Shown here piece by piece: positions 3,004 through 58,525 of a DNA stretch of 61,838 bases. The stretch is from Candidatus Acidiferrales bacterium (GTDB taxonomy: Archaea; Halobacteriota; Bog-38; Methanoflorentales; Methanoflorentaceae): positions 1-61,838 of the forward strand of contig DASPRZ010000055.1 in the NCBI GenBank assembly GCA_035624185.1, written 5' to 3'. The translations under genes and the position numbers were made by a program. The first letter of the stretch is position 1. The number at the start of each line of letters is the position of its first letter. The notes below the pieces were generated by a model. The model did no database searches. It was not told the DNA's origin and saw only the letters and a program-made list of their open reading frames with translations.

Positions 3004-4602
3004 TCACCATTCAGTAATCATACGAACCGTTGTAAAAACTGGCCCCCGTAGATCTATTTTCTTATTTTGACTTGTGATGTAGCGCTTTGCGATAGGATCG
3101 ATTCTGATATTGATATCACTGGGAGATCGAGATATCCTTATCCTAACCTCAAGTTCCTTCCTGCCCTCTTTTAAGGCTCTCTCAATTTCATGTGCTGCTT
3201 CTGCAGCGAAAGCAGCAATGTAAGTAATACCGGTTGAAATGCCAGAGGAGATTGTCGCGCCAATGACGTTGTTATCAGTCACGAAAATCTCATTCAAAAA
3301 AGCAGGGCCGCAAAGTTTTGTGTTCTCTTCGGGTTCAATAACTGAAACTTTTACAAACTCACCCAGCATTTCACCCTCCCACGCAACAAACTCAACGGGG
3401 CTCGGATCTTTGCCATGGATCTTGCAGATATCTACTATCGCATTTTGTACTTCTTTCCCCTGATCCGTAAGCGGCTTCAATCTAATTGAGATAAGATTGC
3501 GGATTTCTTCATCACTTAAGGTAAATTTTTCATAAAATTGTGGGTAGACGAGCTCTCTTATATCTCCATAGTCGTAAACGATCATGGCTATCCTTTCAAC
3601 ACCCGGTCCGCAGTTTAATACGGGAACGTCTATGCCGTAGTTTGCGAGTGTTACAGGACTGTACAGTCCAAAGTCAGATACCTCGAGCCATCCGTCACTC
3701 TCACTTGTCCCGAGGTCGAAGTCAGGATGATACGCATATGCTTCATAATGCTTACCTGGAGCATAATATGTGTCTGTTCCTGTTTCAATCCTGTCAAATT
3801 TAAACTCCTCGAACCCAAGTGGATTTAATAGCTCCGTTGTAATCCACTTCCCAACGTCTATGGAAACATCTTCATCCATCACAACGCAGGACGCTGAGTT
3901 ATGAACTTTAAGGTGTGTGGCATCTTCGCGCTGCTCTCTCCGAAAACGAAGACCGATTGAAAAGAGTTTGACGGGGAGTGATTTATAATGTTGCACAGCA
4001 CTTAGCGTGTCAAACCACGCTGACGTCATATGCGATCGGAGGGTGAGATTTGAGGGCAATGGTTTGAGCTTCTTGAATTCTGGAAGCGTTTTTTCAAATA
4101 CCTCAATCGCACGTGCATCGTCAATGTTCAAAACCCTCGCGATTTCTCTTACAAGCTCATCTGCTTCGACCTCACCCGTTTTCAACTTATGGAGCGTCTC
4201 TTGCAGTTCTAGTACTTTCTTCTCCGGTAGTTCGATTCCAAGTGACCGTATTTTGGCTTGCTTCTGAGCGCTCAGTCCCACGTCTGGTCTCGGGAGTGCG
4301 GCGAGGTAGTAGCACCTATCAAGAATAGCGTACCCTGTTGGCCCCCATTGTTTCATCACATCTTCTGCGGGAAAAATCGTCTCATTTATGACTTCATCAA
4401 ACCCCATTTCAAATAGTCGTTCTCTAAGCCTCCCTATAAGGTCATTTACCCTATGGCTTTTCCCGCGCACCCCTTTGGGGAGGATCCTCGACATGTTATA
4501 AGCGCTACCGTCATTTAGTAATTCTCCGCCATATTTCCATGCACTTTCAAAGTCTTTTTGCTCCTTGATCTTCAATAATTCATCTATGGGTATTCTCTTC
4601 AA
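3004..4602 (-). CDS. sepS: O-phosphoserine--tRNA(Cys) ligase (SepRS)
   Basis: Matches remembered SepRS blocks: DRCYYLAALPRPDVGL, LTLRSHMTSAWF, FRREQREDATHL, HNSASCVV, VYSPVTLANYGIDVPVLNCGPGVERIAMI, YPQFY. Confidence 0.93.
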   Translation of the reverse strand: MKRIPIDELLKIKEQKDFESAWKYGGELLNDGSAYNMSRILPKGVRGKSHRVNDLIGRLRERLFEMGFDEVINETIFPAEDVMKQWGPTGYAILDRCYYLAALPRPDVGLSAQKQAKIRSLGIELPEKKVLELQETLHKLKTGEVEADELVREIARVLNIDDARAIEVFEKTLPEFKKLKPLPSNLTLRSHMTSAWFDTLSAVQHYKSLPVKLFSIGLRFRREQREDATHLKVHNSASCVVMDEDVSIDVGKWITTELLNPLGFEEFKFDRIETGTDTYYAPGKHYEAYAYHPDFDLGTSESDGWLEVSDFGLYSPVTLANYGIDVPVLNCGPGVERIAMIVYDYGDIRELVYPQFYEKFTLSDEEIRNLISIRLKPLTDQGKEVQNAIVDICKIHGKDPSPVEFVAWEGEMLGEFVKVSVIEPEENTKLCGPAFLNEIFVTDNNVIGATISSGISTGITYIAAFAAEAAHEIERALKEGRKELEVRIRISRSPSDINIRIDPIAKRYITSQNKKIDLRGPVFTTVRMITEW

Positions 4603-6794: not shown

Positions 6795-7622
6795 CTTCTG
6801 TTTCTGATATACCTTCTATATCGTTCGTACCGCTTCAAAGTCTTTGTCTTATTTGCTGATCATGCGTTGCATGGATAACTATCACGATTGCGAATGCATT
6901 TGTATGCTTAGGCAACATCGTCTTGTGGTCCAAGGATTATGATTCTGTTAACGTTCGATGTTTCAGAAAAAGAAACAAAATGGTTCATTTTAGTAGTTAC
7001 TAAATTTTAGGTAGCAGTGAAACGTATTTATAATCTTTACCCTTTTGCGCTATCGATGGCATTTAACTTCTTGGGTGGCAAATGTTACTATATTACAAAA
7101 TAAGTTCCAAGTTTTTGGAAACGGTAACCGTAAAGTTATTACAAGTACCAGCACACTGTGTGCCAAATTGGAGGCTTATGAGTGGAGTCGGACAGATATT
7201 TGTCGCGCTGCATGTGGATTCGTAATCGTCCGCTTCGTTGACATTCGTAGTGTCGACACACTCTTTACATGCCCGGCGCATAATAAACTTTGTATCGCAA
7301 CTACATTTGTTTACACTCGGTGTTACTCTCAAATTGTGCGATATTGTCACCATGGATAACGCACGACGTACATAATAGCCCACCTTGTGTTTAGTCCTTT
7401 CAGACGGTGGCTCTTGAGCCTGTAACGATATCGTTTGGCAACGTGCCGTCGATGGATCTATTTTTCTTATGTGTAGAGACAATCCTTGACGCCAACCCAA
7501 GGTATAACAGTGGGCACCGCTATTGATTCTGTTGTAACGTTTACGGAGCAGCGTAGGTGGGGTTGCTTGTAAAAAATTGCATATTTGATTTGATGACATG
7601 CGATATACTGACATCAATGAAA

Positions 7623-7639
7623 TTTACGCTAACCGTAAA
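7623..7639. promoter_or_regulatory. TTTAC-N7-GTAAA operator-like palindrome (TTTACGCTAACCGTAAA)
   Basis: Exact member of the 5-site set, 54 nt upstream of the micro-ORF start. Followed by hairpin 7642..7666. Confidence 0.55.
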
Positions 7640-7692
7640 GCATGTAGCCTTCTGAAAAGGCTGCATATTAAAACTCGAGGAGGTGAAAACAA

Positions 7693-7806
7693 GTGGTCTT
7701 AGCAATATTGTTGTTAGTCGCATTGGCGGTTGGGGCAGTCGGCCTTGTAGCCACGGCATTCTTCCCATTGTTATCGCCGGTGATTGCCTTACTTACTCTA
7801 GCATAA
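7693..7806 (+). CDS. 37-aa hydrophobic micro-protein (MVLAILLLVALAVGAVGLVATAFFPLLSPVIALLTLA)
   Basis: GTG start 6 nt after GGAGGTGA. Paralog at 57830..57940 has identical RBS spacing. Differences between the copies are mostly third-codon-position in this frame. Absent from the ORF track (<60 aa); track ORF 7683..7865 is a different frame. Confidence 0.55.
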   Translation: MVLAILLLVALAVGAVGLVATAFFPLLSPVIALLTLA

Positions 7807-7811
7807 CTATT

Positions 7812-7936
7812 GGGGTGCAGTGGGATACTGCAGGTAAAGAGCATGGTAGCTGTGTCGGTGAATGAAATTGTCTCTAGAAGTTAAACGCTAAAATATATAC
7901 AGCTGTTAAAAATAGTAGCAAATCTCACTGTTACCC
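7812..7936 (+). ncRNA. Conserved ~125-nt element downstream of the micro-ORF (candidate structured RNA or antisense RNA locus)
   Basis: About 80-85% identical by eye to 57966..58095. The ends GGGGTGCAGTG and CACTGTTACCC can pair in both copies. No conserved ORF. Confidence 0.3.
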
Positions 7937-8381
7937 TTTTATCTTTTTCTCTCTCAATATAGTTTTTATTTATATTTGTTCTCTATAACCTCAGAATGAA
8001 AAGCAGCAGTCAAGCATCTCTATGCATTTAAAGAAGACTGGGCTGAGCTGTGCCTGACGATCTACATTCCTCTATGGGCTGGATATTCTGAGGGATAAAC
8101 ACGCGAAGTAAAAAAAGAGCGTGGCCAATCTAATGCAGTTTCCGTCAAAGGCGATTGTACTTTAAGTAGGGTAAACCTGAGCGATAAAAATCAATATATT
8201 CCAAGCAGCTCGATTGAGAGTAAAGACTCAAACGAAATAAGTTAAACGAGGATTGGAAAATCTCTAAGGTCATTGCGTATCTGCACCTCGTGCGTATCGG
8301 GTGTGACGTGACGGACTATATGCTTTAACATGCTGGCAAACTTTCGTCTGCGTCACGCCGGTCGATACCGGTACCCCAACT

Positions 8382-10775
8382 TCATTTTACCTTGTACTGT
8401 TTCAGTCGCAATGAATTGGCGACCACTGACACGGAACTGAGCGCCATTGCCCCCGCGGCAAATTCGGGCCGGAGGAATCCCAGTGCAGCAATGGGGATCC
8501 CTACTGTATTGTAGACGAGTGCCCACCCGAAATTCTGCCGTATTGTATTCATGGTCTTCTTAGAAAGCCTGATGCTCGCGATGACATCACGTAGATCATC
8601 CTTTATGAGTGTGATGTCTGACGCTTCTATGGCAACGTCCGTTCCGGTTCCCATGGCAATTCCTATGTCTGCCTGCGCTAACGCTGCCGCATCGTTGATG
8701 CCGTCGCCCACCATCGCCACCGAATGCCCCCCCTCCCGAAAGAGTTCGATTTCGGCTGATTTGCCCGGTGGAAGGACGTTGGAACGCACCGTGTTAATTC
8801 CTATCTGTCGCGCGATGGCAAGGGCGGCTGTGCGATTGTCGCCTGTGAGCATCGCCGTATTAATCCCCATATCCTGCAATGCCGCGATCACCCCCGCCGC
8901 CTCTTCTCGCACCGTGTCAGCAAGGGCGATGGCCCCTTCCAGTTTGTTATTCACCGCCAGCAGCATGACGGTTTTCCCATCAGCTTCCAGTTCCCGGACC
9001 TTCAGTTCGAGGCTAACGTGCACCCCGTGAGCGCTCATAAGCTCTCTATTGCCGAGGAGGACCTCCGTGCCATCGAGGGAGGCTATGATTCCCTGCCCCA
9101 CCACTGCTTTAAACTCTCGGGGCTCACCGAGTTGTACCCCCCGTTCATACGCGTGGTGAACCACTGCCAAAGCAAGAGGGTGCTCGGATCCCCGCTCTGC
9201 ACTCGCGGCAAGGCGGAGAATGTCCGCTTCTGAAAAGGATTCATTCCCCACGATATCAGTTACCACTAATTCACCCTTGGTGAGAGTCCCGGTCTTGTCA
9301 AACACTATTGTGTCAATGTGCTCGGCGTTCTCGAGGTACTCGCCGCCCTTTATGAGGATGCCGTTTTCTGCGCCCAGGCCGGTCCCGACCATGACAGCGG
9401 TCGGCGTCGCAAGTCCCAAGGCACATGGACACGCGATGACGAGCACGGCAACCGTTCTCAGGAGCATAAGGTTGAACGGAAGGCCTACAATGCTCCATAG
9501 CACAAAGGTGAACAGTGCTGCCGCGATCACGCCGGGGACAAAGTAATTTGAGGCCCTATCGGCGAACCGCTGTATGGGCGCTTTCGACGTTTGCGCCATA
9601 TCGACCAGTCGAATGATCTGTGATAACGCTGTTTCCGCTCCCACTTTCGTTGCCTGCACCTTCAACAGCCCCTCCTGGTTGATCGTCGCCCCAATTACTT
9701 CATCACTTGGTTGTTTATCGACCGGAATGGGTTCACCCGTGAGCATAGCTTCGTCAATCGCAGAATGTCCCTCAACAATGACGCCATCGACGGGTATCTT
9801 CTCACCGGGCCGTATGAGGAGGGTATCCCCTACTCGGACATCATCTGTGGGTATTTGATTTTCTCCTCCGTCCCGCACCACTGTCGCATATTCTGCTTTT
9901 AACTTCAGGAGCTTTCGAATCGCCTCAGAGGTTCCACCTTTCGCCCGCGCTTCAAGGTAACGGCCGAACAACACAAACGCGAAGATAAAGACAGACGTGT
10001 CATAATACGTGTCACCGTGAATGACAAAGGTTGCTGCAACGCTGTACGCGTAGGCGGCTATGGTCCCCAATGAGATGAGGACGTCCATGTTTGCCCCTTT
10101 ATGGATAAGCGAGATGATCGCCCGCTTGTAGAAGCCATAGCCGATGATGATCATGACCGGGGTGGTCACCGCAAACTGGAACACGCTGTCCATGAGGATC
10201 ATCGGGATAAACGGAAGATAGGGTGCAAGCATCGCGAGCAAGAGCGGTATCCCAAAAATGAGGGTGAAAATAAGCTGATTGCGGTAGCCCGTAATCTCAC
10301 GTTCTCGAAACGCCTTCTCTCTATCTAAACGGACCGTTTCGGCTTCGACATCCGGAACTTCCACCACGTCATAGCCCGTGTCTCGTATCGTTTGAATAAT
10401 CGTATCTACGGTCACGACTGATGGATCGCGTTCGATTACCGCTTTGGCCGTCACCGGGTTAATGCTCACGTCGATGACGCCGGGCACTCCTTTCAGGGCA
10501 TTTTCGATTGCCGTAATGCAGGCAACGCACGTGATGCCCGCGATGTCAAGTTCCGTCCTTTCGATATCGACATCATACCCCACATCCCGAACCGCCTGTG
10601 CGAGTTGCTTTGGGGCTATTTTATCCGGATCGTAAGCCACAGTTGCCTGTGCTAATGCGAAGTTGATTGTCGCGTGTGTTACGCCCTCTTGATCTAACAG
10701 CTGCTTCTCGATCGTGAGCGCGCACATCGTGCAGGTCATGCCGAGGACTTTAAACGTGATGGTAGTTTCTGCCAT
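8382..10775 (-). CDS. copA: Cu(I)-exporting P1B-type ATPase CopA
   Basis: Two N-terminal HMA domains (GMTCTMC, GITCVAC), CPC motif [25 protein letters not shown]. Confidence 0.95.
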
Positions 10776-10936
10776 TCGAAAGCCTAGTTAGTTTAGTAAC
10801 GCATTTATTTATGCTAAATCATGATAGATAACGATTTGAAGCTACCGTCATCAACATTTTTTACCTTAATTACCTACTTCGGCACTCCGCTGGCGCTGTT
10901 CAGCTCCGTCTCGATCTGATACGCGCTCCAGTCACT

Positions 10937-11122
10937 TCACACTTGCCAGAATGCCACTACTCTTTCGACGTTTATGTAATCTCTACGGTTATCGTGCTCA
11001 AGAATTATCACGCCGTCAGCGCTTCCAACCACTTTCCCTTTAAGAGTTTCATTCGGTCTTCCCCCGAAATATACCTCAATCTCCTTGCCGTAGAAATGCT
11101 CGGAAACAGTTTTGTCCAGCAC
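10937..11122 (-). CDS. 61-aa conserved small protein upstream of copA (Sm-like/beta-barrel-like, function unknown)
   Basis: GTG start 7 nt after AGGAGGTG; the track's longer start is unlikely. 61-aa paralog at 51068..51253 sits upstream of the copA pseudogene. Confidence 0.65.
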   Translation of the reverse strand: MLDKTVSEHFYGKEIEVYFGGRPNETLKGKVVGSADGVIILEHDNRRDYINVERVVAFWQV

Positions 11123-11322
11123 GGGGCAGCACCTCCTCATAAAATTACCAATAATTTCTTGTTAACTGCACATGTGGTATTAGCTTTTCTTGTGCTCGTG
11201 AAAGACAGCGGTTCGGAGCACGAGGATGGTGTCAGTATACAAGGGGATTAAATGTTGATTACTCTCACTTAATTGGGTGCAGATAGCGATACAAACGAAG
11301 TGAAATTGAAAGAGGTATTAAA

Positions 11323-11574: not shown

Positions 11575-11725
11575 GTTTGGATCTGCATGTACCACCATAG
11601 CAGTGACGCTCAGAAAGAGTTTAATGTCATGGTGTAGCGTGAACGCTTTCCACCGTGACATAGCTGCCAGAGTTCACGCAACTCCTGAACGCAGCACAGA
11701 TATTGGTAGTTCCTTTGTTATCTGC

Positions 11726-12067
11726 CTATGACTGCACTTGTAGGCGTCGCATCCTCAGCTTCTGTGCTCTGTTTCCATAGATCGCGTTGCACCGGATTGC
11801 TGCGTCCCATGCATCTGTTTCTGTGAAATAGGCTTTTAAAAACTTCTCACAGTAGAATATGGGAACATCATTGCATGTTATGTGCGCGAAATTATCGCTG
11901 CTCAGTAATTCTAATTCGCACCTGCCACACGTAGTGTCTTGGACCCGTTTGATGAGTATACCGAACAGCTCATTAAAATCATCAGTTCGGGTCTCTTGTG
12001 GTGGATAGTTATCCATTGCTATTGTCCGCAGTTTTGGTCCCTGTTTGATGTGGTCACTCATTGTCAT
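11726..12067 (-). CDS. hypothetical Cys-containing protein
   Basis: 113-aa ORF. A decayed copy of its 3' end lies at ~23390..23470. Confidence 0.4.
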   Translation of the reverse strand: MTMSDHIKQGPKLRTIAMDNYPPQETRTDDFNELFGILIKRVQDTTCGRCELELLSSDNFAHITCNDVPIFYCEKFLKAYFTETDAWDAAIRCNAIYGNRAQKLRMRRLQVQS

Positions 12068-12316: not shown

Positions 12317-12517
12317 TCAACAAAGACCCCTCCCTGCAGAGTCATACGCATGATTCACATTCCTAAATTCAAGTCCGACTTTCTCGCCAGCTCCCAGAGA
12401 TGTCGTCAGTAGAACTGTGGCCACTGATGTTGCTGAAAGAACTGACATGACGCTCATCAAGAGTCCCGATTTATGCTTCGAGGTTGTTGGTTTGGGTATT
12501 TTGGTTTTGGCAAACAT
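12317..12517 (-). CDS. hypothetical small membrane/secreted protein
   Basis: 66 aa with one hydrophobic segment. Divergent from the BlaI-like gene and shares the operator-bearing intergenic region. Confidence 0.35.
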   Translation of the reverse strand: MFAKTKIPKPTTSKHKSGLLMSVMSVLSATSVATVLLTTSLGAGEKVGLEFRNVNHAYDSAGRGLC

Positions 12518-12558
12518 TGGTTTACACCAACTGTAAATTATATCACTCGCATATAAAC

Positions 12559-12575
12559 TTTACGTTTAGTGTAAA
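12559..12575. promoter_or_regulatory. TTTAC-N7-GTAAA operator-like palindrome
   Basis: TTTACGTTTAGTGTAAA in the divergent promoter region. Confidence 0.55.
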
Positions 12576-12624
12576 TATAGTCTACATGGTAAAGTGGCGT
12601 TGCGAAATATTGAAATAGAATAAC

Positions 12625-12641
12625 TTTACAATATATGTAAA
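12625..12641. promoter_or_regulatory. TTTAC-N7-GTAAA operator-like palindrome (extended ACTTTACAatataTGTAAAGT)
   Basis: Ends 10 nt before the ATG of the BlaI-like gene. Longest perfect palindrome of the set. Confidence 0.6.
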
Positions 12642-12650
12642 GTGTAAAAG

Positions 12651-13016
12651 ATGGTAAAACTCGAGCGTATTAGCCTCCGAAATGAAGGGCTTAAAAAGTT
12701 CTTCAGCTCTAACGAAGTCAGGATACTGGAGTTGCTCTGGAAGAAGCAACCACTAACCTCAGCGCAGATACAAAGGGAATGTGAGGATCTTTCCCTCGCC
12801 TGTGTAGCGGGTACCCTTGACAGACTAGTGAAGAGTGGTTTCGTGGAAAGAAAAGTCGACGAGAGCGAAACAAGAGTGCGCTACATCTACTCCCCGACGT
12901 GCACCCAGGATGAACTCGGCGTGAGGATATCAGAGCACGTAGTCGACTGCCTCATCGACACTTTTGGCACTGCTGTTGTGAGCAGCATCGGAAAAGCTCG
13001 GGGGAAACGCAGCTGA
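12651..13016 (+). CDS. BlaI/MecI/CopY-family winged-helix transcriptional repressor
   Basis: 121 aa. The N-terminal pattern FSSNEVRILELLWKKQPLTSAQI is typical of the penicillinase-repressor family. Followed by an M56-type protease gene. Confidence 0.85.
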   Translation: MVKLERISLRNEGLKKFFSSNEVRILELLWKKQPLTSAQIQRECEDLSLACVAGTLDRLVKSGFVERKVDESETRVRYIYSPTCTQDELGVRISEHVVDCLIDTFGTAVVSSIGKARGKRS

Positions 13017-13153
13017 CTGCGCTGGATTGCTTCTTACGTTGTCTCACCCAACTTAACATACTGCTCCCATTTTCTCTCATCATAGCCTCATCGCTCTCTC
13101 TTTTCGTCCTCTTTTTCAAACTGAGGAAATATGAATTCCTCCTCGGGGGCCAG

Positions 13154-13684
13154 ATGGCAGTTACGGTGTCAATAGTGTTTGGTCTAATTTCAATGACGTG
13201 CCCTATGTATCAGTGGATATGGATTTATTCTGGGAGCGTCTCTTCAGGTATACTTGCGCTTACGCTGGTCAGGTACTGGGTGGCAAAAGAAGCTCGCAAG
13301 AACACAGTACCCCTCACCTCTTATGTCTTGCCGCTGGAAAAAGAATTTGGGGTACCGGTGCGGGTAATTGACACTCAGAAGATGCGGGCATTTGTCCACG
13401 GGGAGGCTGCCTATCTCTCGGTGGGGCTCCTAGAACATCTTAATTGGGATGAAGTGAGGGCTGTGGTGGCGCACGAAGTGTACCATTTAAAGCACAGCCC
13501 AGACAAGTTAATCTCTTCATTGCTGGCGCTGACTTCCTTAACCTTTAAGCCATATGATGACGAGCATCTGGCTGATAAGTACGCGGCAAAGGTCGCAGGA
13601 GAAGATAACCTTGCGAGGGCCCTCGAGAAACTGGAAATAGCAGGTAATGTACAGCGGATTAAAGATATTTTCAAAAGCAATTGA
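13154..13684 (+). CDS. M56 (BlaR1-like)/M48 zinc metalloprotease, short membrane-anchored form
   Basis: Two N-terminal hydrophobic segments and the motif VAHEVYHLKHSPD (HExxHxxxxD). The frame stays open and hydrophobic upstream to ~12914 without an ATG/GTG/TTG, so the start is uncertain. Confidence 0.75.
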   Translation: MAVTVSIVFGLISMTCPMYQWIWIYSGSVSSGILALTLVRYWVAKEARKNTVPLTSYVLPLEKEFGVPVRVIDTQKMRAFVHGEAAYLSVGLLEHLNWDEVRAVVAHEVYHLKHSPDKLISSLLALTSLTFKPYDDEHLADKYAAKVAGEDNLARALEKLEIAGNVQRIKDIFKSN

Positions 13685-13826
13685 TGTGTGACTTTACGCT
13701 CTCGATTGGGATTGAGATTTGTAACCATCCATTGACGCACGTCAGGACCGAATTCACGCCTAACTAAAAGGTGCCAGCGCGTGTTGAATTTGCCCAGATG
13801 AAACGTAATATATAGTTATTAATGAC

Positions 13827-13843
13827 TTTACACTAACCGTAAA
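13827..13843. promoter_or_regulatory. TTTAC-N7-GTAAA operator-like palindrome (TTTACACTAACCGTAAA)
   Basis: Upstream of the Cys-pair peptide gene. Its core is nearly identical to site 7623. Confidence 0.55.
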
Positions 13844-13863
13844 TTATATATTCTGTCACTGAC

Positions 13864-13880
13864 TTTACAGTCATTGTAAA
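13864..13880. promoter_or_regulatory. TTTAC-N7-GTAAA operator-like palindrome (TTTACAGTCATTGTAAA)
   Basis: Second site upstream of 13942. Followed by hairpin 13881..13907, which begins ATGTAG. Confidence 0.55.
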
Positions 13881-13941
13881 TATGTAGACTTGTCCGAAGA
13901 CTACATATTACAAACTCCTACAAACTCTAAGAGGTGAAAAC

Positions 13942-14202
13942 ATGAAAAACAGAGTAAAAATGTTCCTTACAGCATTTCTCGTCTTGAGTGTGTTTGGCAT
14001 AATGATAGCACAGACAGCAAGCGCTGCTGTCCCGCCAGCAAGCACTTCGGCGGCCTGCTGTCCCGGTGGCCCATGCTGTCCCGGTGGCGCTTGTTGCGGT
14101 GTAAAGGTAACGAGTTCTATTGCCGCCCCAACAATCATTTCGACGCTCTGCTGTCCCGGTGGCCCATGCTGTCCCGGTGGCGCCTGTTGCCACGTAAAGT
14201 AA
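13942..14202 (+). CDS. secreted peptide with two CCPGGPCCPGGACC repeats (12 Cys in six vicinal pairs)
   Basis: GAGGTGA RBS. Signal peptide MKNRVKMFLTAFLVLSVFGIMIAQTASA. 93-bp internal duplication (14055.. and 14148..). Confidence 0.7.
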   Translation: MKNRVKMFLTAFLVLSVFGIMIAQTASAAVPPASTSAACCPGGPCCPGGACCGVKVTSSIAAPTIISTLCCPGGPCCPGGACCHVK

Positions 14203-14324
14203 ACGAGCACCATAGCGGGTTGTAAAACAGTTGAACCCACTTGTTGTGCATCGTACTTTTTCTTTTTTTAGCGTTAGGGAAACCTTAAGTAGTCGTAAAC
14301 TTCGAGACCGCATTTAGTGTTAGC

Positions 14325-14825: not shown

Positions 14826-15047
14826 ATGATGAAAGTTCCTATGAACCAAGATACGAAGACGATGTGCGTCTGCCCGAGCTGTCCCACATTTATGGGAAAC
14901 AATCTCATGACTGGGGTGTTTTGCTCGACAGGTGAGACTGACAAAATGCAACACATGAAGGGATGTAATTGCCCGGGATGTAAAGTGCATGATATGTACG
15001 AGCTCAATGGAGGCAAACACACGTGTGGGTGTTGCTGGTGCGGCTGA
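14826..15047 (+). CDS. DUF2769-like Cys-rich small protein
   Basis: AGGAGGTGA RBS. Motifs CVCPSCPTF, FCSTGE and CNCPGCKVH match the remembered family pattern. Confidence 0.75.
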   Translation: MMKVPMNQDTKTMCVCPSCPTFMGNNLMTGVFCSTGETDKMQHMKGCNCPGCKVHDMYELNGGKHTCGCCWCG

Positions 15048-15188: not shown

Positions 15189-15576
15189 ATCTTTTCACTA
15201 TCAATACGTCTCCTTCTATGTCCGGTACATAATAATACGTCTTATTACGACAAAATTTGTTTACAACTCGCTATTATCTTCAATTCATGCGGTGTCGTAC
15301 AGCACTTGATAATGTACGGTACGTTATAACCTGTTTTTTGTTTGGCTCTACGCGGGAAGAGGCTCTTGCGCTTTTACTGATGTCGCTTAACAATCTACCA
15401 TAGGTTGGTCTTATTATTGGTTGATCTACTTTCTTATGTATAGTCAAGGATTGCCGCTACGCCAAAGTATAACAGTGGGCATGGCTATAGATCCTGTTAT
15501 GACTCTGTTATGGAGGCAAGCGTAGATGTTTCTAGTAAATGAGGTCGCATTTATTGATGGCGTAAGGATCAATGAG

Positions 15577-15685
15577 AGTTCAATCCTTGTTCTAATGAAT
15601 ACTGCTTGTAAATTCATTGTTACTCGCATCCCCATCGGTAGTGAAAGTTCCAATCCTTGTTCTGGTGGATGCTGCTTTTAAATTC
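15577..15685. repeat. Imperfect tandem duplication (~69-bp period, 2 copies) containing AATCCTTGTTCT
   Basis: AGTTCAATCCTTGTTCTAATGAATACTGCTTGTAAATTC versus AGTTCCAATCCTTGTTCTGGTGGATGCTGCTTTTAAATTC. Confidence 0.6.
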
Positions 15686-15989
15686 GGTTTTTTAACGTGA
15701 TAGGCTTCGTAGATCAAGTGCTTCTTGTAGAAATAGTCGGGTTTGCGTAGAAAAAATGGCCCTGTTCTTAGACTTAATGTACAAAGCCATTTGTTTGGAT
15801 TTTTGTTAAAAAAGTCCAACGTGTTCAAAAATCGGCTTTTTCTTATTTAACAAAACCGCTCCAAGGAACAAATGACCGGGACTGGGATGAATGACATCAT
15901 CAAAGTGCTCAGATAACTTCGGCAACAAATGCTAAAGACAATAACTTCAAGTTGTATCTATGCAATTTATTCTGAATAAACTTGCTTGA

Positions 15990-16135
15990 ATGGCAGAAAC
16001 CACTATCACGTTTAAAGTCCTCGGCATGACCTGCACGATGTGCACGCTCACGATTGAGAAGCAGCTGTCAGACCAAGTGGGAGTAACACACGCGACGGTC
16101 AGTTTGCATTAGCGCAAGCTATTGATTACGCAACA
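15990..16135 (+). pseudogene. copA 5' remnant (first HMA domain only)
   Basis: [26 protein letters not shown]... is nearly identical to the copA N-terminus, then a stop/frameshift. Its upstream ~70 bp also resembles the copA promoter region. Confidence 0.8.
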
Positions 16136-22132: not shown

Positions 22133-22831
22133 GAGGATGTCAACTTAAGAGTATAATAGTGTGAACACTCTTCTGTTTGAGGTGAAAAAGACATGTTCAC
22201 ACAGTTAACAGAACTCCTTGAAGCTCATAACGTTTTCGTTCGGGAACGGAAGCCCACTTCACTCCGTGCCATGGGAATCGCGCTGCTGTACTTCGGTCTG
22301 TCGTGCCGGCAGACGGCAGAGGCACTCTCGTTCTCCGACGAGGCTTCCCATGAAGCGGTGCGGCAGTGGTACCATCGGGCTCAGAAGCTGCTCTGTGATC
22401 CGTCGAAGCGGTACAGGCCGACGATAGCGATCGACGAGACGAAGTTCAAGGTGGAAAAACGGTGGTACTTTCTCTGGGCGGTCGATACGGAGAGGAGAGA
22501 GCTGCTTTGCGTCGAAATCACGCCGACGAGGGGTGGTCACGATGCCTCCCGGTTTATACGACGGGTGCTGAAAACGTGCACGAACACGCCGACGGTGCTG
22601 GTGGACGGTGGCCCGTGGTATCCAAGGGCTTTAACACGACTGAGAGTACCGTGGGAATGGGTCACGTTCGGGAAACGGAACGTAGTGGAGCAATGGTTTA
22701 GCATCTTCAAACAGCGAGTGAAGCGGTTTTATCGGCGGTGGCCGCATAATGCGCGGGCGGAGACGGCGACATCGTGGTGTGAGGCATTTGTAGCACTGTA
22801 TAATCTCAAGAGGGCTTAAGTTGACATCCTC
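22133..22831 (+). mobile_element. IS6-family-like insertion sequence (699 bp)
   Basis: 17-bp perfect terminal inverted repeats GAGGATGTCAACTTAAG. 8-bp direct target duplication AGAATTTT (22125..22132 and 22832..22839). Single transposase ORF. Confidence 0.85.
22193..22819 (+). CDS. DDE transposase (IS6-like)
   Basis: 208 aa with IAIDETKFKV, VLVDGGPWY and VVEQWFSIFKQRVKRF. The stop codon lies inside the right IR. Confidence 0.85.
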   Translation: MFTQLTELLEAHNVFVRERKPTSLRAMGIALLYFGLSCRQTAEALSFSDEASHEAVRQWYHRAQKLLCDPSKRYRPTIAIDETKFKVEKRWYFLWAVDTERRELLCVEITPTRGGHDASRFIRRVLKTCTNTPTVLVDGGPWYPRALTRLRVPWEWVTFGKRNVVEQWFSIFKQRVKRFYRRWPHNARAETATSWCEAFVALYNLKRA

Positions 22832-22960
22832 AGAATTTTAGACCTTACTAGCGGGATGAAAACAGCGTATTTTTATCCACAAGTAAAAGCAAAGGTCTCG
22901 TAAATTAGCGTTTTCTAAACCGTATTGCCTGGGTACAGGCGTTCTCACGCATGACTCTCT
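22832..22960. repeat. ~130-bp dispersed repeat, copy a (interrupted at its left end by the IS)
   Basis: About 80% identical by eye to 26171..26295. Both begin AGAATTTTAGACCTTACTAG. Confidence 0.7.
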
Positions 22961-23489
22961 TAATAATTCGTGTTTTTAACGTGATAGTTTTTGTAGGAAA
23001 AAGTCGGGTTTGCGTAGGAAAAATGCCCCACCTTAAACTTAATGTATAAAGCTATTTATTTGAGAATTTGTTAAAAAAAGTCTAACTCAAAGACTGGAAC
23101 TAGTAATGGGTATAACAATGCGGAATTCTAGCCTGCAGTATCTTGCTCTAGCCCGCAGTGCATGTATTACCCCCCATGAAAATTTGCCAATTACTTTGGG
23201 CACTTGCACATGTGGCATTAGCTCCTCTAAACTTGCGAAAAACAGCGGTTCATAACGTGAAGTATCCTTGCAGTAATTATGCTGAGAGTGAGTTTAATGT
23301 CAAAGTGCAGCGTGAATGTTTTCCAGTATGACACGATTGAAAATTCACGCAATTCCCGTATATAGCGTAAATATCGGTGGTTTCCTTTGTGTCCACCTAT
23401 GAATGAATAAGTGTCGTGTCAGGCCTCCCCACATCTGTGCTCTCTTCCATTTTTGATATTTAAGCCAACTGTCTTGTTGTACCAGCTAT

Positions 23490-25571
23490 TTAAATCTTCA
23501 AAAACCGTGAATTGATCGCCACGATCACCGTGCTGACGGACATCAATATTGCACCAGCTGCGGGGGACAACAAGATGCCAGAGGGGTAGAGGATCCCGGC
23601 TGCCAGCGGGATAGCGAAAGTGTTATACCCCGTCGCCCACGAAAGGTTCTGCATCATCTTCCTGTACGTCGCACGGGAGAGCCCCACGATTGCCACCGCA
23701 TCGAGGGGATTGCTCCTTACGAGGATGATATCTCCCGTCTCCACCGCAACGTCGGTACCTGCACCAATGGCAATCCCGACGTCCGCCTGGGCCAAGGCCG
23801 GCGCATCATTCACTCCATCACCCGTCATGGCAACGACTAAGCCCCTCGACTGGACCTCTCTTACCTTCGCTACTTTTTCCTGCGGGAGCACTTCTGCGAG
23901 GTACTCATCAAGCCCGATTTCCTCTGCCACCCACTGTGCCACTTGACGGTTGTCGCCAGTGAGCATCATTGTGCGAATGCCCATCTCCTTAAGGGCGGCA
24001 ATCGCATGCTTCGACTCAGGCCTGATGATATCGGCAAGAGCGATTGCGCCAGCTACTGCGCCATTAACCATCACGAATACCACCGTTTTTCCCTGAGAAT
24101 AAAAGTGTTCAACGCGTTCGTCAGCAACGCCTAGGTTCTTCTCTTTCAGGTACCCGGGGCTTACTACCCACACCTCTGTGCCGTTTACCCTCCCCTTAAC
24201 TCCCTTTCCTGGAAGCGCCTTAAACGCCTCAACTTGAAGCGGCGTGCTGGCTGATGCCACCACTGCTTGTGCAATGGGATGTTCAGAATGACCCTCGACG
24301 GCTGCAGCATAGTTCAAGAGCGTTTGCGTATCTAGTGTTGGATCGTCAGTAAAAGTAATGACGTCAGTCACGCCAAACCGTCCCTTGGTAAGGGTGCCCG
24401 TCTTGTCAAAGATGATCGCTTGGATATTCCTCGCACGCTCGAAGGCGCAACGGTTCCGTATTAGCAGGCCATTTTGAGCCCCAAGCGCAGTCGAAACCGC
24501 AACGACTAATGGGATGGCAAGACCAAGGGCGTGAGGACACGCGATGACCATCACCGTCACCGCCCGCTCAAGGCCGAAGTCGACGCTTCGGTTGATGAGC
24601 ACTTGCCATATGAAAAATGTAATGCCCCCTCCTGCAAGGGCGATGATAACGAGCGCAAGAGCCGCTCGGTCTGCCAAATCCTGTGTCCGTGACTTGCTCT
24701 CTTGAGCCTTCTTCACAAGTTCGATCACCTGCGAAAGGAACGAATCTTTGCCCGTCTTTCTTATTGCAATCGTCACTGACCCGTCACCGTTGATCGCGCC
24801 ACCGATGACCATTGTGCCGGGCTTTTTAAACACGGGTTTCGACTCGCCAGTAAGCAAAGATTCATTCACTGAGGTTTCGCCCTCGACGACCTCACCGTCA
24901 GCAGGAACCTTCTCGCCTGGTTTTACTAGAACGCGATCTCCCTCCACCAGCGTGTCTATAGGGGTGTCCTGCACACTCCCATCAGGCATAAGCTTGTGAG
25001 CTTCTGACGGCATCAACCGTGCCAAATCTTCGAGCGCTCGTGATGCCCCCATGACCGAACGCATCTCAATCCAATGGCCTAAGAGCATGATGTCGATCAA
25101 CGTCGTGAGCTCCCAGAAAAGGACGCTACCACGCAATCCAAACACAATCGCAGTGCTATAGAGGTACGCGGTCGTGATTGCGACGGCGACAAGCGTCATC
25201 ATGCCCGGCAAACGTGCCTTGATCTCACTGACGATGCCCTTCAGGAACGGATATCCGCCGTAGAAATACACAAAAGAGGCTAACACAAAGAGCAGATATT
25301 GATCACCCGGGAAGCTAAGGACCGCGCTAATACCGACGAGCTCTTGAATCGACGGGGAGAGGATGATGATCGGGATAGTGATGATGAGAGATACCCAGAA
25401 GCGCCTCCTAAAGTCAGCGACGCTGTGGCCGAGATGGTGGGGTACTCCCCGCCATTCAGCAGGGGGATGAACGGGATGCTCATAGACATGCTCTTGTTCT
25501 GCAGCGTCATGAGATATGGGAGCGTGCATTTCATCGTAACCCTCGTCTCCTTCATGACCGTTGTGATTCAT
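23490..25571 (-). CDS. copB: P1B-3-type copper ATPase CopB (His-rich N-terminus, CPH motif)
   Basis: N-terminus MNHNGHEGDEGYDEMHAPISHD..., IACPHALGLAIP, DKTGTLT, GDGVNDAPAL. Confidence 0.92.
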   Translation of the reverse strand: MNHNGHEGDEGYDEMHAPISHDAAEQEHVYEHPVHPPAEWRGVPHHLGHSVADFRRRFWVSLIITIPIIILSPSIQELVGISAVLSFPGDQYLLFVLASFVYFYGGYPFLKGIVSEIKARLPGMMTLVAVAITTAYLYSTAIVFGLRGSVLFWELTTLIDIMLLGHWIEMRSVMGASRALEDLARLMPSEAHKLMPDGSVQDTPIDTLVEGDRVLVKPGEKVPADGEVVEGETSVNESLLTGESKPVFKKPGTMVIGGAINGDGSVTIAIRKTGKDSFLSQVIELVKKAQESKSRTQDLADRAALALVIIALAGGGITFFIWQVLINRSVDFGLERAVTVMVIACPHALGLAIPLVVAVSTALGAQNGLLIRNRCAFERARNIQAIIFDKTGTLTKGRFGVTDVITFTDDPTLDTQTLLNYAAAVEGHSEHPIAQAVVASASTPLQVEAFKALPGKGVKGRVNGTEVWVVSPGYLKEKNLGVADERVEHFYSQGKTVVFVMVNGAVAGAIALADIIRPESKHAIAALKEMGIRTMMLTGDNRQVAQWVAEEIGLDEYLAEVLPQEKVAKVREVQSRGLVVAMTGDGVNDAPALAQADVGIAIGAGTDVAVETGDIILVRSNPLDAVAIVGLSRATYRKMMQNLSWATGYNTFAIPLAAGILYPSGILLSPAAGAILMSVSTVIVAINSRFLKI

Positions 25572-26170: not shown

Positions 26171-26295
26171 AGAATTTTAGACCTTACTAGAGGAATGAAA
26201 GCAGGAATTTGCCTACGAGTAAAATAACAGCCTCGTAAATTAGCGTTTTCTAAGCCTTATTGGCTAAATACAGGCGTTCTTACGCAGGATCCTCT
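26171..26295. repeat. ~130-bp dispersed repeat, copy b (uninterrupted; carries the empty IS target AGAATTTT)
   Basis: See 22832..22960. Confidence 0.7.
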
Positions 26296-26333
26296 TGAGG
26301 TACTAGTAACTACAGGTGTGCTCCTAAAACACC

Positions 26334-43306: not shown

Positions 43307-43322
43307 TTAAATCACCATGTTT

Positions 43323-43361
43323 ATTAACGCCGTTAACATATAAAAAATTAACGGCGTTAAT
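43323..43361. other. Perfect 14-bp-stem inverted repeat ATTAACGCCGTTAA / TTAACGGCGTTAAT
   Basis: Read directly from the sequence, with an 11-nt A-rich loop. Possibly a relic bidirectional terminator. Confidence 0.5.
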
Positions 43362-43380
43362 CAAACTACTTTAAAATCAT

Positions 43381-57602: not shown

Positions 57603-57829
57603 CGCTTTTTTAGTTTTGTTCAAAAATTTTCTGTGACAAAGCTTTTTATGATTTACAGGTTAAGGTAATACATAGTGTTCAAACGCTGTGAACATGCATC
57701 GACCCGGTGAAACGCCTGTAATGTTGTGTTTCGCATCGTGCGCTATACCCGGTGCAGTGTATGTAGGAACAATACATCAGTTCTATCTTCATGTTTGAAC
57801 TGACATAGTAAAAGAGGAGGTGAAGGAAC

Positions 57830-57940
57830 ATGTTGCTATTCTTACTATTAGGAGCAATAGCAGTCGCGGCACTTGGCCTCGTAGGCACCGCGTTCTGCCC
57901 ATTGTTAGCGCCGCTGATTGCCGTGCTTACTCTGGCGTGA
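57830..57940 (+). CDS. 36-aa hydrophobic micro-protein (MLLFLLLGAIAVAALGLVGTAFCPLLAPLIAVLTLA), paralog of 7693..7806
   Basis: ATG 6 nt after GGAGGTGA. The C-terminal 20 aa are nearly identical to the paralog. The track ORF 57820..58005 is another frame. Confidence 0.55.
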   Translation: MLLFLLLGAIAVAALGLVGTAFCPLLAPLIAVLTLA

Positions 57941-57965: not shown

Positions 57966-58095
57966 GGGGTACAGTGAAATACTGCGAGTAATGAGAGCAT
58001 GGTAGCCGGGTTGCACGAATAAAGTGGTCTCTAGAAGTTAAACGCTAAAATTTGGATAGCTGTTTAAAAATCGTAGCAGATTTCACTGTTACCCC
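57966..58095 (+). ncRNA. Second copy of the conserved micro-ORF-downstream element
   Basis: Aligns with 7812..7936. The ends GGGGTACAGTG and CACTGTTACCCC can pair. Confidence 0.3.
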
Positions 58096-58525
58096 GTTTA
58101 TCTCCTTCAATTTTCAAGATGGCTTTTATATTGTACTTGTTTTCAATAACTCAAGAGTGGACATTTTCAATAAGCTTTCCTTTGATAAGAACACGATGAT
58201 GCCTCTATGTACTTCTTTTTAATGAATGCAAAAACCGTTATAATGCCGTGATTGAATTTCGAAGCTACATTAAAACTGAGTGCTGAATACTTACATAGCC
58301 AGATACAAAAAAGTTGCAAAGTCTGCATTTGTGCATCTTAGGAAATAAAAATAGAGTAATCACGAGAGAGTTATCTGGTTAAAACCCGGGAAACGTTCAA
58401 TTTTATCTCACAACGTTGAAAGCAGACCATATAAAGAGCGCGTCTCAGTTCTCAATGCGGTCCGCACATACTGGGCACTCGTGTTATCGGAAAGCTCATT
58501 ATCTTGCACCATACTAATAACCCGT

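What the first reader, a model, noticed from the sequence alone, without database searches (positions are those of the whole stretch)
7693..7806. Two paralogous 36/37-aa hydrophobic micro-ORFs missed by the ORF track
Seen: 7693-7806 (GTG) and 57830-57940 (ATG) each start 6 nt after a perfect GGAGGTGA. They encode MVLAILLLVALAVGAVGLVATAFFPLLSPVIALLTLA and MLLFLLLGAIAVAALGLVGTAFCPLLAPLIAVLTLA. In the conserved 3' half, roughly half of the nucleotide differences (5 of 10 differing sense codons) are third-position synonymous changes in this frame. That argues for selection on the peptide rather than on the overlapping 60-aa track ORFs. Copy 1 carries the regulon operator and a leader hairpin. Inference, as alternatives: a small membrane subunit or modulator linked to metal stress, or a type-I-toxin-like membrane peptide. 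The second idea is attractive because of the conserved non-coding partner element downstream.
Basis: partly seen in the sequence, partly recalled or inferred. Interest (0 to 1): 0.65.

Follow-up and report, generated by a model that had tools for sequence, protein, structure and literature searches.

The report
Unannotated hydrophobic 36-residue archaeal micro-protein family
The two tiny ORFs are real, strongly expressed genes for an entirely hydrophobic 36/37-residue membrane peptide. They belong to a multi-copy family in uncultured peat methanogen-type archaea that gene finders and protein databases have missed, and what the peptide does is still unknown.

Summary
Both micro-ORFs (7693-7806 and 57830-57940) exist as described, each 6 nt after GGAGGTGA.

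Related loci gave 19 distinct coding sequences of this family. All encode 36/37 residues with a GGAGGTG/GAGGTGA Shine-Dalgarno core 6-7 nt before the start.
- Variable columns by codon position are 18/9/35.
- All 17 invariant residues are encoded by more than one codon.
- pN/pS is 0.21 in frame, against 0.99 and 5.69 in the other two frames.
- The ORF plus SD stays 83-89% identical between paralogs whose flanks are unrelated.

Selection therefore acts on the peptide, not on the overlapping 60-aa ORFs.

Peat metatranscriptomes hold discrete RNAs of about 400 nt (7546-7932 and 57682-58095). The copy-2 RNA is the deepest feature in 20 kb.

The downstream "partner element" is a folded domain of about 130 nt. 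It is most likely the mRNA's own 3' UTR, and most paralogs lack it.

Copy 1 carries one of six exact TTTAC-N7-GTAAA operators of a BlaI/CopY-type regulon.

No Pfam, NCBIfam, PDB or 1.84-billion-protein match exists.

The function is unresolved. I favour an abundant, oligomerising membrane micro-protein wired to stress regulons. A type-I-toxin-like role is not excluded.

The parts
7455..7533 (+). Upstream block of copy 1. It is 77% identical to 15423-15498, which lies upstream of an orphan two-repeat CRISPR-like element. It may be the promoter region of the longer transcript seen in situ.
   Evidence: metatranscriptome contigs start at 7546/7552
7546..7932 (+). Extent of the copy-1 RNA seen in two peat metatranscriptomes, as contigs at depth about 3. 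The ends are contig ends, not proven RNA ends.
7623..7639 (+). Palindromic operator TTTACGCTAACCGTAAA of the BlaI/CopY-type regulon, in the copy-1 leader.
   Evidence: 6 exact sites, 0.08 expected; leader homologous to that of the Cys-rich gene
7642..7666 (+). Leader hairpin (ATGTAGCCTT / AAGGCTGCAT, loop CTGAA) between the operator and the SD. An equivalent hairpin sits in the Cys-rich gene leader.
7679..7686 (+). Shine-Dalgarno GGAGGTGA of copy 1, with a 6-nt spacer.
   Evidence: a GGAGGTG/GAGGTGA core with a 6-7 nt spacer precedes every family member
7693..7806 (+). Micro-ORF copy 1 (GTG start, 37 aa, MVLAILLLVALAVGAVGLVATAFFPLLSPVIALLTLA).
   Evidence: identical ORF in strain variants L001/L006, whose flanks do vary
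7812..7937 (+). Structured 3' domain of copy 1. A closing stem of about 15 bp (GGGGTGCAGTGGGAT / ATCTCACTGTTACCC) encloses two hairpins and the invariant 25-mer GTCTCTAGAAGTTAAACGCTAAAAT.
7938..7990 (+). T-rich tail, about 72% identical to the copy-2 tail. It is probably a set of oligo-T termination signals. On the minus strand it contains an ATATAAA TATA-like motif.
   Evidence: sequence reading
57643..57651 (+). TATA-like TTTTTATGA, preceded by AAAGC, about 25-35 nt upstream of the observed RNA 5' end of copy 2 (inferred promoter).
   Evidence: conserved in L002, L009 and L010
57682..58095 (+). Copy-2 RNA as seen in three peat metatranscriptomes. Sequencing adapters abut both ends, so these are real fragment ends. 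Depth is 17-78, against 5 or less for most neighbouring genes.
57816..57823 (+). Shine-Dalgarno GGAGGTGA of copy 2, with a 6-nt spacer.
57830..57940 (+). Micro-ORF copy 2 (ATG start, 36 aa, MLLFLLLGAIAVAALGLVGTAFCPLLAPLIAVLTLA).
   Evidence: in metatranscriptome variants 14 of 20 SNPs fall at third codon positions
57966..58095 (+). Structured 3' domain of copy 2 (fold z = -3.5). The RNA 3' end lies exactly at the base of the closing stem.
58096..58150 (+). Conserved T-rich tail of copy 2.
12651..13016 (+). BlaI/MecI/CopY-family winged-helix repressor with three operators upstream (12521, 12559, 12625). It is the presumed regulator of copy 1.
13942..14202 (+). Secreted Cys-rich (CCPGGPCCPGGACC x2) protein. 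Its leader (two operators, hairpin, SD) is homologous to the copy-1 leader, so it is a member of the same regulon.

Best explanation
What is shown:
- These are two members of a lineage-restricted, multi-copy family of genuine protein-coding micro-genes in uncultured methanogen-type archaea ('Methanomicrobia') from peat.
- Copies 1 and 2 are each transcribed as a stand-alone RNA of about 400 nt. The RNA has a long 5' leader, a perfect Shine-Dalgarno 6 nt before the start, a 36/37-codon ORF, and in these two lineages a 3' UTR of about 130 nt.
- The product is a 36-residue peptide with no charged residue (GRAVY about 2.4), predicted as one continuous helix.
- Its core pattern of small residues and prolines, GLVgtA..PL..PlIavLTLA, is conserved or invariant across the family.
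- Copy 1 has acquired the promoter and leader of a BlaI/CopY-type repressor regulon, which it shares with a secreted Cys-rich protein, and it lies next to CopA. Other copies sit behind different leaders.

What is inferred:
- The 3' UTR folds into a stem-closed domain that defines and probably protects the RNA 3' end. This would account for the very high steady-state level.
- The peptide inserts into the membrane and acts there as an abundant, self-associating or hetero-associating (A plus B type) micro-protein that modulates or protects a membrane function under stress. I do not think it acts primarily as a killing toxin.
- Copy 1 is switched on with the metal or thiol stress response.
For: Coding:
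- 19 distinct CDS give variable columns by codon position of 18/9/35. All 17 invariant residues are encoded by more than one codon. pN/pS is 0.21, against 0.99 and 5.69 in the other frames (first set).
- Ortholog pair win2/L002 shows 10 synonymous changes and 1 non-synonymous change.
- The only ORF length difference is one whole codon. The stop position is fixed although the stop codon itself varies between TAA, TAG and TGA.
- Every copy has a GGAGGTG/GAGGTGA core 6-7 nt before the start.
- ORF identity is 83-89% between paralogs whose 150-nt flanks are mostly near background. Flank identity is 5-57%, and unrelated 150-mers average 37%.

Expression:
- Metatranscriptome contigs cover only 7546-7932 and 57682-58095.
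- Adapters abut 57682 and 58095.
- The copy-2 RNA is the deepest feature in 20 kb.

Sense polarity of the 3' domain:
- Three adapter junctions all place read 2 on the plus strand.
- There are 19 G.U cells against 4 A.C cells in the consensus structure.
- The RNA ends at the base of the closing stem.
- The 3' UTR is 93-97% identical between orthologs whose ORFs are 86-89% identical.

Membrane peptide:
- No charged residues, and GRAVY 2.3-2.5.
- AlphaFold gives a single helix over residues 2-35 with pLDDT 85.

Association and dosage:
- Five copies lie within 1.8 kb.
- Tandem pairs have 28-30-nt spacers.
- A diverged B-type peptide is always second in an A-B pair, in two organisms.

Regulon:
- Six exact operators against 0.08 expected.
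- The repressor matches Pfam Penicillinase_R at 9e-11.
- The copy-1 leader is homologous to the Cys-rich gene leader.

Precedent:
- M. mazei spRNAs encode small membrane proteins that help under stress (bioRxiv 10.1101/2025.10.28.685009).
Against: - There is no direct evidence of translation (no Ribo-seq or peptide data) and none of membrane localisation.
- The strand of the RNA is inferred only from adapter orientation. That inference assumes dUTP-type stranded libraries. Logan contigs themselves carry no direction.
- Covariation support for the 3' domain is weak. Only 5 sequences were available, there is 1 compensatory pair, and 129 of 500 shuffles reach the observed score.
- High copy number, tandem arrays, narrow distribution, structured UTRs and a stress operator are also the classic signature of type I toxins.
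- A specific protein partner would more usually go with a single copy next to the partner's gene.
- No partner complex has been identified.
Confidence: 0.5

Rival explanations
1. Type-I-toxin-like system. The peptide is a membrane-damaging toxin whose synthesis is held in check by an RNA. For copies 1 and 2 that RNA would be an antisense transcript started from the conserved tail downstream of the 3' domain and complementary to the mRNA's 3' end, as in txpA/RatA or bsrG/SR4. Stress operators would release bursts of toxin, as LexA does for tisB.
For: - The peptide is small and hydrophobic.
- The family is multi-copy, with tandem arrays.
- Annotators missed it.
- The UTRs are long and structured.
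- The SD is partly paired, with P(unpaired) about 0.3.
- Conservation extends about 55 nt beyond the RNA 3' end. On the minus strand this stretch contains an ATATAAA TATA-like motif about 30 nt upstream of the domain, in both copies.
- Copy 1 carries a stress-regulon operator.
Against: - All three adapter junctions indicate plus-strand RNA, and no contig runs past 58095.
- G.U pairs favour the plus strand.
- The 3' element is absent from 11 of the 19 distinct copies, so it cannot be the family's general antitoxin.
- Tandem ORFs separated by 28-30 nt look co-transcribed. To my knowledge type I toxin genes are usually monocistronic.
- The peptide has no charged or polar tail of the kind most type I toxins carry. 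Sequence-specific conservation of G/T/P/A positions suggests defined helix packing.
- There is no Pfam or NCBIfam match to any toxin family.
- To my knowledge no type I system has been established in archaea.
Confidence: 0.2
2. Dual-function RNA. The main product of copies 1 and 2 is the structured 3' domain, acting as a 3'-UTR-borne or processed riboregulator or protein-binding RNA. Its invariant 25-nt stretch would be the working surface, and the peptide would be a co-expressed passenger.
For: - The 3' domain is more conserved than the ORF between orthologs (93-97% against 86-89%).
- It has a 25-nt invariant, partly unpaired core.
- Its fold is independent of the rest of the RNA.
- Copy 2 has a fold z-score of -3.5.
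Against: - The peptide is under strong purifying selection, and it is the only part shared by all 19 copies.
- There is no Rfam match.
- No complementary target was found in the window.
- Depth is even across leader, ORF and 3' domain, which gives no sign of a separately accumulating fragment.
- Covariation is not significant.

This reading is compatible with the main explanation for these two lineages rather than opposed to it.
Confidence: 0.15
3. A dedicated small subunit or regulator of the neighbouring copper P-type ATPase, in the manner of KdpF, sarcolipin or MgtR/MgtS.
For: - Copy 1 lies 575 nt from the 3' end of copA (8382-10775), in a metal island, and carries the island's operator.
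- There is a faint CcoS-like hit (E 0.26).
Against: - The gene is convergent with copA and not in its operon.
- Copy 2 and all the other distinct copies found have no P-type ATPase gene adjacent.
- Copy number is far above the number of pumps.
- The CcoS score of 11 bits is well below the 28.35 cutoff.
Confidence: 0.07
4. Non-coding conservation. The ORF is fortuitous, and the block is conserved as DNA or RNA only.
For: - Conservation continues without a break into non-coding sequence.
- Hydrophobic codon runs tend to stay open in several frames.
Against: - Codon-position pattern of 18/9/35.
- pN/pS of 0.21 in this frame only.
- A fixed ORF length of 36 codons across 18 of the 19 copies, with one extra codon in the remaining copy.
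- An SD core with a 6-7 nt spacer before every copy.
- ORF conservation with unrelated flanks.
Confidence: 0.02

Closest known systems
spRNA-encoded small proteins of Methanosarcina mazei (for example sP24 from spRNA24, with asRNA94)
   Same: - A stand-alone short transcript in a methanoarchaeon carries a small ORF.
- The product is a single-helix membrane protein.
- Expression is linked to stress.
- The family is lineage-specific.
- Standard annotation overlooks it.
(bioRxiv 10.1101/2025.10.28.685009; Nat Commun 2024 Ribo-seq catalogue, listed.)
   Different: - No sequence relationship has been shown, and the sP24 sequence was not compared.
- Here the peptide has no charged residue at all.
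- The family has many paralogs, including tandem A-B pairs.
- Two lineages carry a conserved 130-nt structured 3' UTR.
- No antisense RNA has been detected.
Bacterial type I toxin-antitoxin families (hok/sok, ldr/rdl, ibs/sib, tisB/istR, txpA/RatA, bsrG/SR4)
   Same: - A hydrophobic peptide of fewer than 40 residues.
- Multi-copy and tandem genes.
- A narrow host range.
- Structured UTRs.
- One copy sits behind a stress operator, as tisB and dinQ sit behind LexA.
- Annotation misses them.
   Different: - The host is an archaeon.
- No antitoxin RNA has been demonstrated, and the candidate element appears to be sense-strand and is missing from most copies.
- Some copies look bicistronic.
- The peptide has no charged tail.
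- There is no homology to any toxin model.
Small single-helix modulators of P-type ATPases and other membrane complexes (KdpF, sarcolipin/phospholamban, MgtR/MgtS, AcrZ, CcoS; M. mazei MtrI/MtrR and sP36)
   Same: - The size and the single hydrophobic helix.
- Copy 1 lies in a metal-pump island and is co-regulated with it.
   Different: - The gene is not in a pump operon.
- Most copies are unlinked to any pump.
- Copy number is very high.
- No homology was found.
Multi-copy tandem alpha/beta light-harvesting peptide genes of purple bacteria (pufBA/pucBA), as an analogy only
   Same: - Pairs of different short hydrophobic peptides are encoded in tandem.
- There are several paralogous pairs per genome.
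- mRNA levels are very high and depend on a stabilising 3' stem-loop. This last point is from my own knowledge, not tested here.
   Different: - The organism and function are unrelated.
- There is no pigment-binding His.
- There is no homology.

Membership tests
Protein-coding micro-gene (sORF-encoded small protein) | Purifying selection in the proposed frame only | tested here: met
   pN/pS is 0.21 in frame, against 0.99 and 5.69 in the other frames. Variable columns by codon position are 18/9/35. All 17 invariant residues are encoded by more than one codon.
Protein-coding micro-gene (sORF-encoded small protein) | Conserved translation signals and ORF length | tested here: met
   A GGAGGTG/GAGGTGA core lies 6-7 nt before the start in all 19 copies. 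The length is 36 codons in 18 copies and 37 in one. The stop position is fixed while the stop codon varies.
Protein-coding micro-gene (sORF-encoded small protein) | Transcribed | tested here: met
   Metatranscriptome contigs lie over both loci, and adapters bound the ends of copy 2.
Protein-coding micro-gene (sORF-encoded small protein) | Translated (ribosome footprints or detected peptide) | not testable with these tools
   No Ribo-seq or proteomics data are available for this uncultured organism.
Type I toxin-antitoxin system | Small hydrophobic membrane peptide | tested here: met
   36/37 aa, GRAVY about 2.4, single predicted helix.
Type I toxin-antitoxin system | Cognate antisense or trans RNA that pairs with the toxin mRNA | tested here: inconclusive
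   No stranded reads are available. Adapter orientation at three ends and the G.U bias indicate that the downstream element is on the sense strand. The element is absent from most copies. A minus-strand TATA-like motif in the tail is not excluded.
Type I toxin-antitoxin system | Toxicity on expression | not testable with these tools
   This needs an expression experiment.
Type I toxin-antitoxin system | Homology to a described toxin family | tested here: not met
   No significant hit in Pfam, NCBIfam or PDB. The best matches are E 0.09-0.4 to unrelated TM/TAT segments.
BlaI/MecI/CopY-type repressor regulon (copy 1 only) | Palindromic TACA/TGTA-type operator in the promoter or leader | tested here: met
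   TTTACGCTAACCGTAAA lies at 7623-7639. It is one of 6 exact TTTAC-N7-GTAAA sites, all in three promoter/leader regions, with 0.08 expected.
BlaI/MecI/CopY-type repressor regulon (copy 1 only) | Cognate repressor encoded nearby and autoregulated | tested here: met
   12651-13016 matches Pfam Penicillinase_R at 9e-11 and has three operators upstream. An M48 peptidase fragment lies downstream.
BlaI/MecI/CopY-type repressor regulon (copy 1 only) | Repressor binding and inducer response | not testable with these tools
   This needs EMSA or reporter assays. In the strain variant L001/L006 the site is weakened to CTTACGCTAACCGTAAG.
Small subunits or regulators of P-type ATPases (KdpF, MgtR/S, sarcolipin, CcoS) | Encoded in or beside the pump operon across homologs | tested here: not met
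   Only copy 1 is near a pump, and it is convergent with it rather than in the operon. The other copies are unlinked.
Small subunits or regulators of P-type ATPases (KdpF, MgtR/S, sarcolipin, CcoS) | Sequence match to the family model | tested here: not met
   CcoS TIGR00847 scores E 0.26 and 11 bits, against a cutoff of 28.35. No KdpF or other model was hit.
Known RNA family for the 3' domain | Match to an Rfam covariance model | tested here: not met
   Nothing at the gathering threshold or at E up to 10, apart from noise.

The most novel reading that the evidence does not exclude
This could be the first type-I-like toxin/RNA-antitoxin family in Archaea. It would be a multi-copy, uncharged 36-residue membrane toxin whose mRNA is controlled through its structured 3' end by an antisense RNA started in the conserved downstream tail. 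Individual copies would be wired to different stress regulons, including a BlaI/CopY-type metal regulon.
Probability: 0.15. Interest if true: 0.8.

Novelty: new member of a known kind. Interest (0 to 1): 0.55.

Why it matters
- This peptide family is invisible to gene callers and absent from a library representing about 15 billion predicted proteins. Yet its RNA is the most abundant feature of a 20-kb stretch of this genome in peat metatranscriptomes.
- Methanogen-type archaea of peat matter for methane budgets. Small membrane proteins are emerging as regulators of their energy and transport complexes.
- The family offers a clean, testable case. It has 19 natural sequence variants, an A/B pairing, a defined stress operator on one copy, and a conserved RNA 3' domain that may explain transcript stability.
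- It is also a methodological lesson. The true micro-ORFs were recovered only by searching for the mis-called "shadow" ORFs on the other frame and strand.

Tried and rejected
- Exact look-up of both peptides in the 15-billion-protein collection found neither.
- An HMMER profile against 1.84 billion representatives gave 0 hits.
- Pfam, NCBIfam and PDB gave only noise.
- blastn against plasmids and phages gave no match. The viral contig scan gave no relative.
- Rfam at the gathering and E-value thresholds gave nothing for either locus.
- The metagenome scan with a 20-mer of the 3' element gave only 5 true loci, all close orthologs, and 1 random hit, L005.
- A CreTA-like idea was dropped. It proposed the micro-ORF as a toxin guarded by the nearby two-repeat CRISPR-like element at 15581-15685. 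No cas genes lie nearby, the shared block is only upstream sequence, and there is no third peptide copy there.
- The copy-2 leader hairpin TCAGTTC/GAACTGA is not conserved in L002.
- Whole-mRNA folds were not significant for copy 1 (z = -0.8), and SD sequestration was inconsistent.
- A duplex-energy scan for targets of the invariant 25-mer timed out. A mismatch-tolerant search found only the two self copies.
- Literal peptide strings are absent from the paper library.

Full report
**1. Observation**

The window is archaeal. It encodes O-phosphoseryl-tRNA synthetase, my reading of the 532-aa ORF at 3004-4602. It also encodes MetX/MetW and a CopA-type ATPase. It matches peat metagenomes.

Both micro-ORFs are exactly as described:
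- 7693-7806 has a GTG start and encodes VVLAILLLVALAVGAVGLVATAFFPLLSPVIALLTLA, read as M at the start.
- 57830-57940 has an ATG start and encodes MLLFLLLGAIAVAALGLVGTAFCPLLAPLIAVLTLA.
- Each lies 6 nt after GGAGGTGA.

The conserved block is 7664-7989 against 57804-58150, and it is the only such pair in the window. Gene callers left the interval empty, and neither peptide is in a 15-billion-protein collection.

**2. Is it a gene?**

Three routes gave relatives.
- (a) A 20-mer from the downstream element found strain or species orthologs of both copies in JGI peat metagenomes (L001-L004, L006).
  - The copy-1 ORF is identical in L001/L006, while its leader and 3' region vary.
  - The copy-2 ortholog L002 differs by 10 synonymous changes and 1 non-synonymous change.
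- (b) A peptide-pattern scan of GTDB species genomes found four paralogs in one MAG labelled 'uncultured Methanomicrobia archaeon' (L007-L010).
- (c) The true ORF is never called, so I queried the 'shadow' ORFs on the alternative frame and the opposite strand.
  - The nine mis-called hypothetical proteins led to contigs with eleven more copies.

In total there are 19 distinct CDS and 17 distinct peptides.
- All are 36 codons long, except copy 1 with 37.
- All have a GGAGGTG/GAGGTGA core 6-7 nt before the start.
- The stop position is fixed, though the stop codon varies (TAA, TAG or TGA).
- Variable alignment columns by codon position are 18/9/35.
- All 17 invariant residues are encoded by more than one codon.
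- Pooled pN/pS is 0.21 in frame, against 0.99 and 5.69 in the two other frames (first seven sequences).
- The overlapping 60/61-aa ORFs (7683-7865, 57820-58005) lie in the frame with pN/pS above 3.
- Between paralogs such as L007/L008 and copy 2, the ORF is 88-89% identical while the 150-nt flanks are near background (27-53%; unrelated 150-mers average 37%).

Those criteria were that homologs lack an intact ORF, or that conservation is explained at the DNA or RNA level.

**3. Expression and transcript anatomy**

Four peat metatranscriptomes contain contigs covering only 7546-7932 and 57682-58095.
- Flanking genes are at zero or near zero depth.
- Over 20 kb the copy-2 RNA is the deepest feature, at depth 17-78 against 5 or less for most other genes.

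Illumina adapter sequence abuts 57682 and 58095, and it also abuts the equivalent 5' end of an L009-like paralog. These are therefore real fragment ends. In all three cases the orientation places read 2 on the plus strand. With the usual dUTP libraries this means the RNA is plus-strand. This step rests on the library type, which I could not verify.

The same data show further paralogs with other leaders and other 3' flanks.

**4. The downstream element**

Positions 7812-7937 and 57966-58095 fold into a domain of about 130 nt.
- It is closed by a stem of about 15 bp (GGGGTGCAGTGGGAT / ATCTCACTGTTACCC).
- It has two inner hairpins and an invariant 25-mer.
- The domain forms independently within the full-length RNA folds.
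- In five sequences, 96.9% of pair cells are canonical, against 34-46% for slid controls. There is only one compensatory pair, and the shuffle control is not significant at 129/500.
- G.U cells outnumber A.C cells by 19 to 4, which favours the plus strand. The structure was predicted on that strand, however.
- The RNA ends exactly at the stem base, followed by T-runs.
- Between orthologs the domain (93-97% identity) is better conserved than the ORF (86-89%), so it is functional in its own right.
- It has no Rfam match.
- It occurs only in the copy-1 and copy-2 lineages, and in truncated form in L009. Cluster copies share a different 3' flank.

My reading is that it is a 3' UTR stability and termination domain. 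This is inferred. An antisense promoter (ATATAAA on the minus strand of the conserved tail) cannot be excluded.

**5. Regulation and context**

TTTAC-N7-GTAAA occurs six times in the window, against 0.08 expected:
- once in the copy-1 leader (7623-7639);
- three times upstream of a BlaI/MecI/CopY-family repressor (12651-13016, Pfam 9e-11);
- twice upstream of a secreted Cys-rich protein (13942-14202).

The copy-1 leader, from the operator through the hairpin to the SD, aligns with the leader of the Cys-rich gene.

The surrounding 7-26 kb is a metal island. It contains:
- CopA;
- a second P-type ATPase;
- a Cys-rich DUF2769 protein;
- the M48 peptidase fragment downstream of the repressor gene.

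In L007/L008 the micro-ORF is divergent from a very highly expressed secreted HWWGGHPGYG-repeat protein. Copy 2, L009 and L010 lie beside housekeeping genes.

In L013-L015, five copies lie within 1.8 kb. They include two tandem pairs with 28-nt spacers. A diverged B-type peptide (MIILLLLATIADTALGLVGCALFPLISPLISVLTLA) follows an A-type peptide there, as it also does in L016.

**6. The peptide**

- It has no charged residue, and GRAVY is 2.3-2.5.
- AlphaFold gives one helix over residues 2-35 with pLDDT 85.
- The conserved core is GLVgtA..PL..PlIavLTLA. It is rich in small residues and has two prolines four residues apart.
- It has no match in Pfam, NCBIfam or PDB, none in a profile search of 1.84 billion representatives, and none in the paper library.

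**7. Interpretation**

Shown: this is a real, highly transcribed, multi-copy micro-protein family, and one copy carries a BlaI/CopY-type operator.

Inferred: the peptide inserts into the membrane and associates with itself or with the B type. I favour an abundant membrane micro-protein serving stress adaptation, by analogy with M. mazei spRNA-encoded sP24.

The type-I-toxin reading keeps real weight, at about 0.2.
- In its favour are the copy number, the tandem arrays, the narrow known range and the structured UTRs.
- Against it are the apparent sense polarity of the element, its absence from most copies, the apparently bicistronic pairs, and the lack of a charged tail.

A dedicated CopA subunit is unlikely. 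A purely non-coding explanation is excluded for practical purposes.

**8. Novelty**

This is a new, previously unannotated family within the known class of sORF-encoded small membrane proteins. It would be categorically more interesting if shown to be an archaeal type I toxin system.

Noticed in passing
window 12480-14320: A BlaI/CopY-type regulon. The repressor (12651-13016) has three TTTAC-N7-GTAAA operators upstream and an M48-peptidase (BlaR1-like) fragment downstream (13154-13684). A secreted Cys-rich protein (13942-14202) contains a 93-nt tandem duplication encoding CCPGGPCCPGGACC and has two operators in its promoter.
   Followed up: partly
window 15581-15685 (and 15423-15498 vs 7455-7533): An orphan two-repeat CRISPR-like element matches Rfam CRISPR-DR7 and has one 33-nt spacer. 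No cas genes lie nearby. The sequence upstream of it is 77% identical to the sequence upstream of micro-ORF copy 1.
   Followed up: partly
window 49840-50938; 15988-16119: A second copA copy is broken into two ORFs (270 aa and 122 aa) and lacks most of the transmembrane core, so it is a pseudogene. A third, isolated copA 5' fragment lies at 15988-16119. The copA upstream region is also duplicated (10273-11195 vs 50436-51326).
   Followed up: no
window 10937-11122 (-) and 51068-51253 (-): A conserved 61-aa ORF with a strong SD (MLDKTVSEHFYGKEIEVYFGGRPNETLKGKVVG...) lies immediately upstream of both copA copies. It is probably a co-transcribed small protein of unknown role.
   Followed up: no
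window 14826-15047 (+): A 73-aa Cys-rich DUF2769 protein with a perfect SD, in the same metal island.
   Followed up: partly
window 22193-22819 (+); 23490-25571 (-): An IS240-family DDE transposase sits next to a second P-type (heavy-metal type) ATPase. Several intergenic blocks around them are duplicated (15722-15820 vs 22988-23086; 22832-22961 vs 26171-26296; 11608-11734 vs 23281-23405).
   Followed up: no
L008 24-272 (-); L007 upstream end: A secreted 82-aa protein with HWWGGHPGYG repeats is encoded divergently from the micro-ORF. It is among the most abundant transcripts in one metatranscriptome (depth up to about 200). It may bind metal.
   Followed up: partly
L013 3900-5660 (= L014, L015); L016 700-2330: A cluster holds five micro-ORF copies on both strands, including tandem A-A and A-B pairs. 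A 90-aa hydrophobic protein ending in GCGCGCH lies at L013 6698-6970 (-). A shared T-rich block of about 100 nt flanks two of the copies.
   Followed up: partly
window 57677-57693 and 57788-57801: Two GTTCA...TGAAC inverted repeats lie in the copy-2-type leader, one at the RNA 5' end and one before the SD. Both are conserved in L002, L009 and L010. They may be binding sites for an unknown regulator, or RNA hairpins.
   Followed up: no
window 36273-36561 vs 51817-52105; 43195-43558 vs 53099-53465: Further duplicated segments (86% and 71% identity) are unrelated to the finding. The window is unusually rich in segmental duplications.
   Followed up: no
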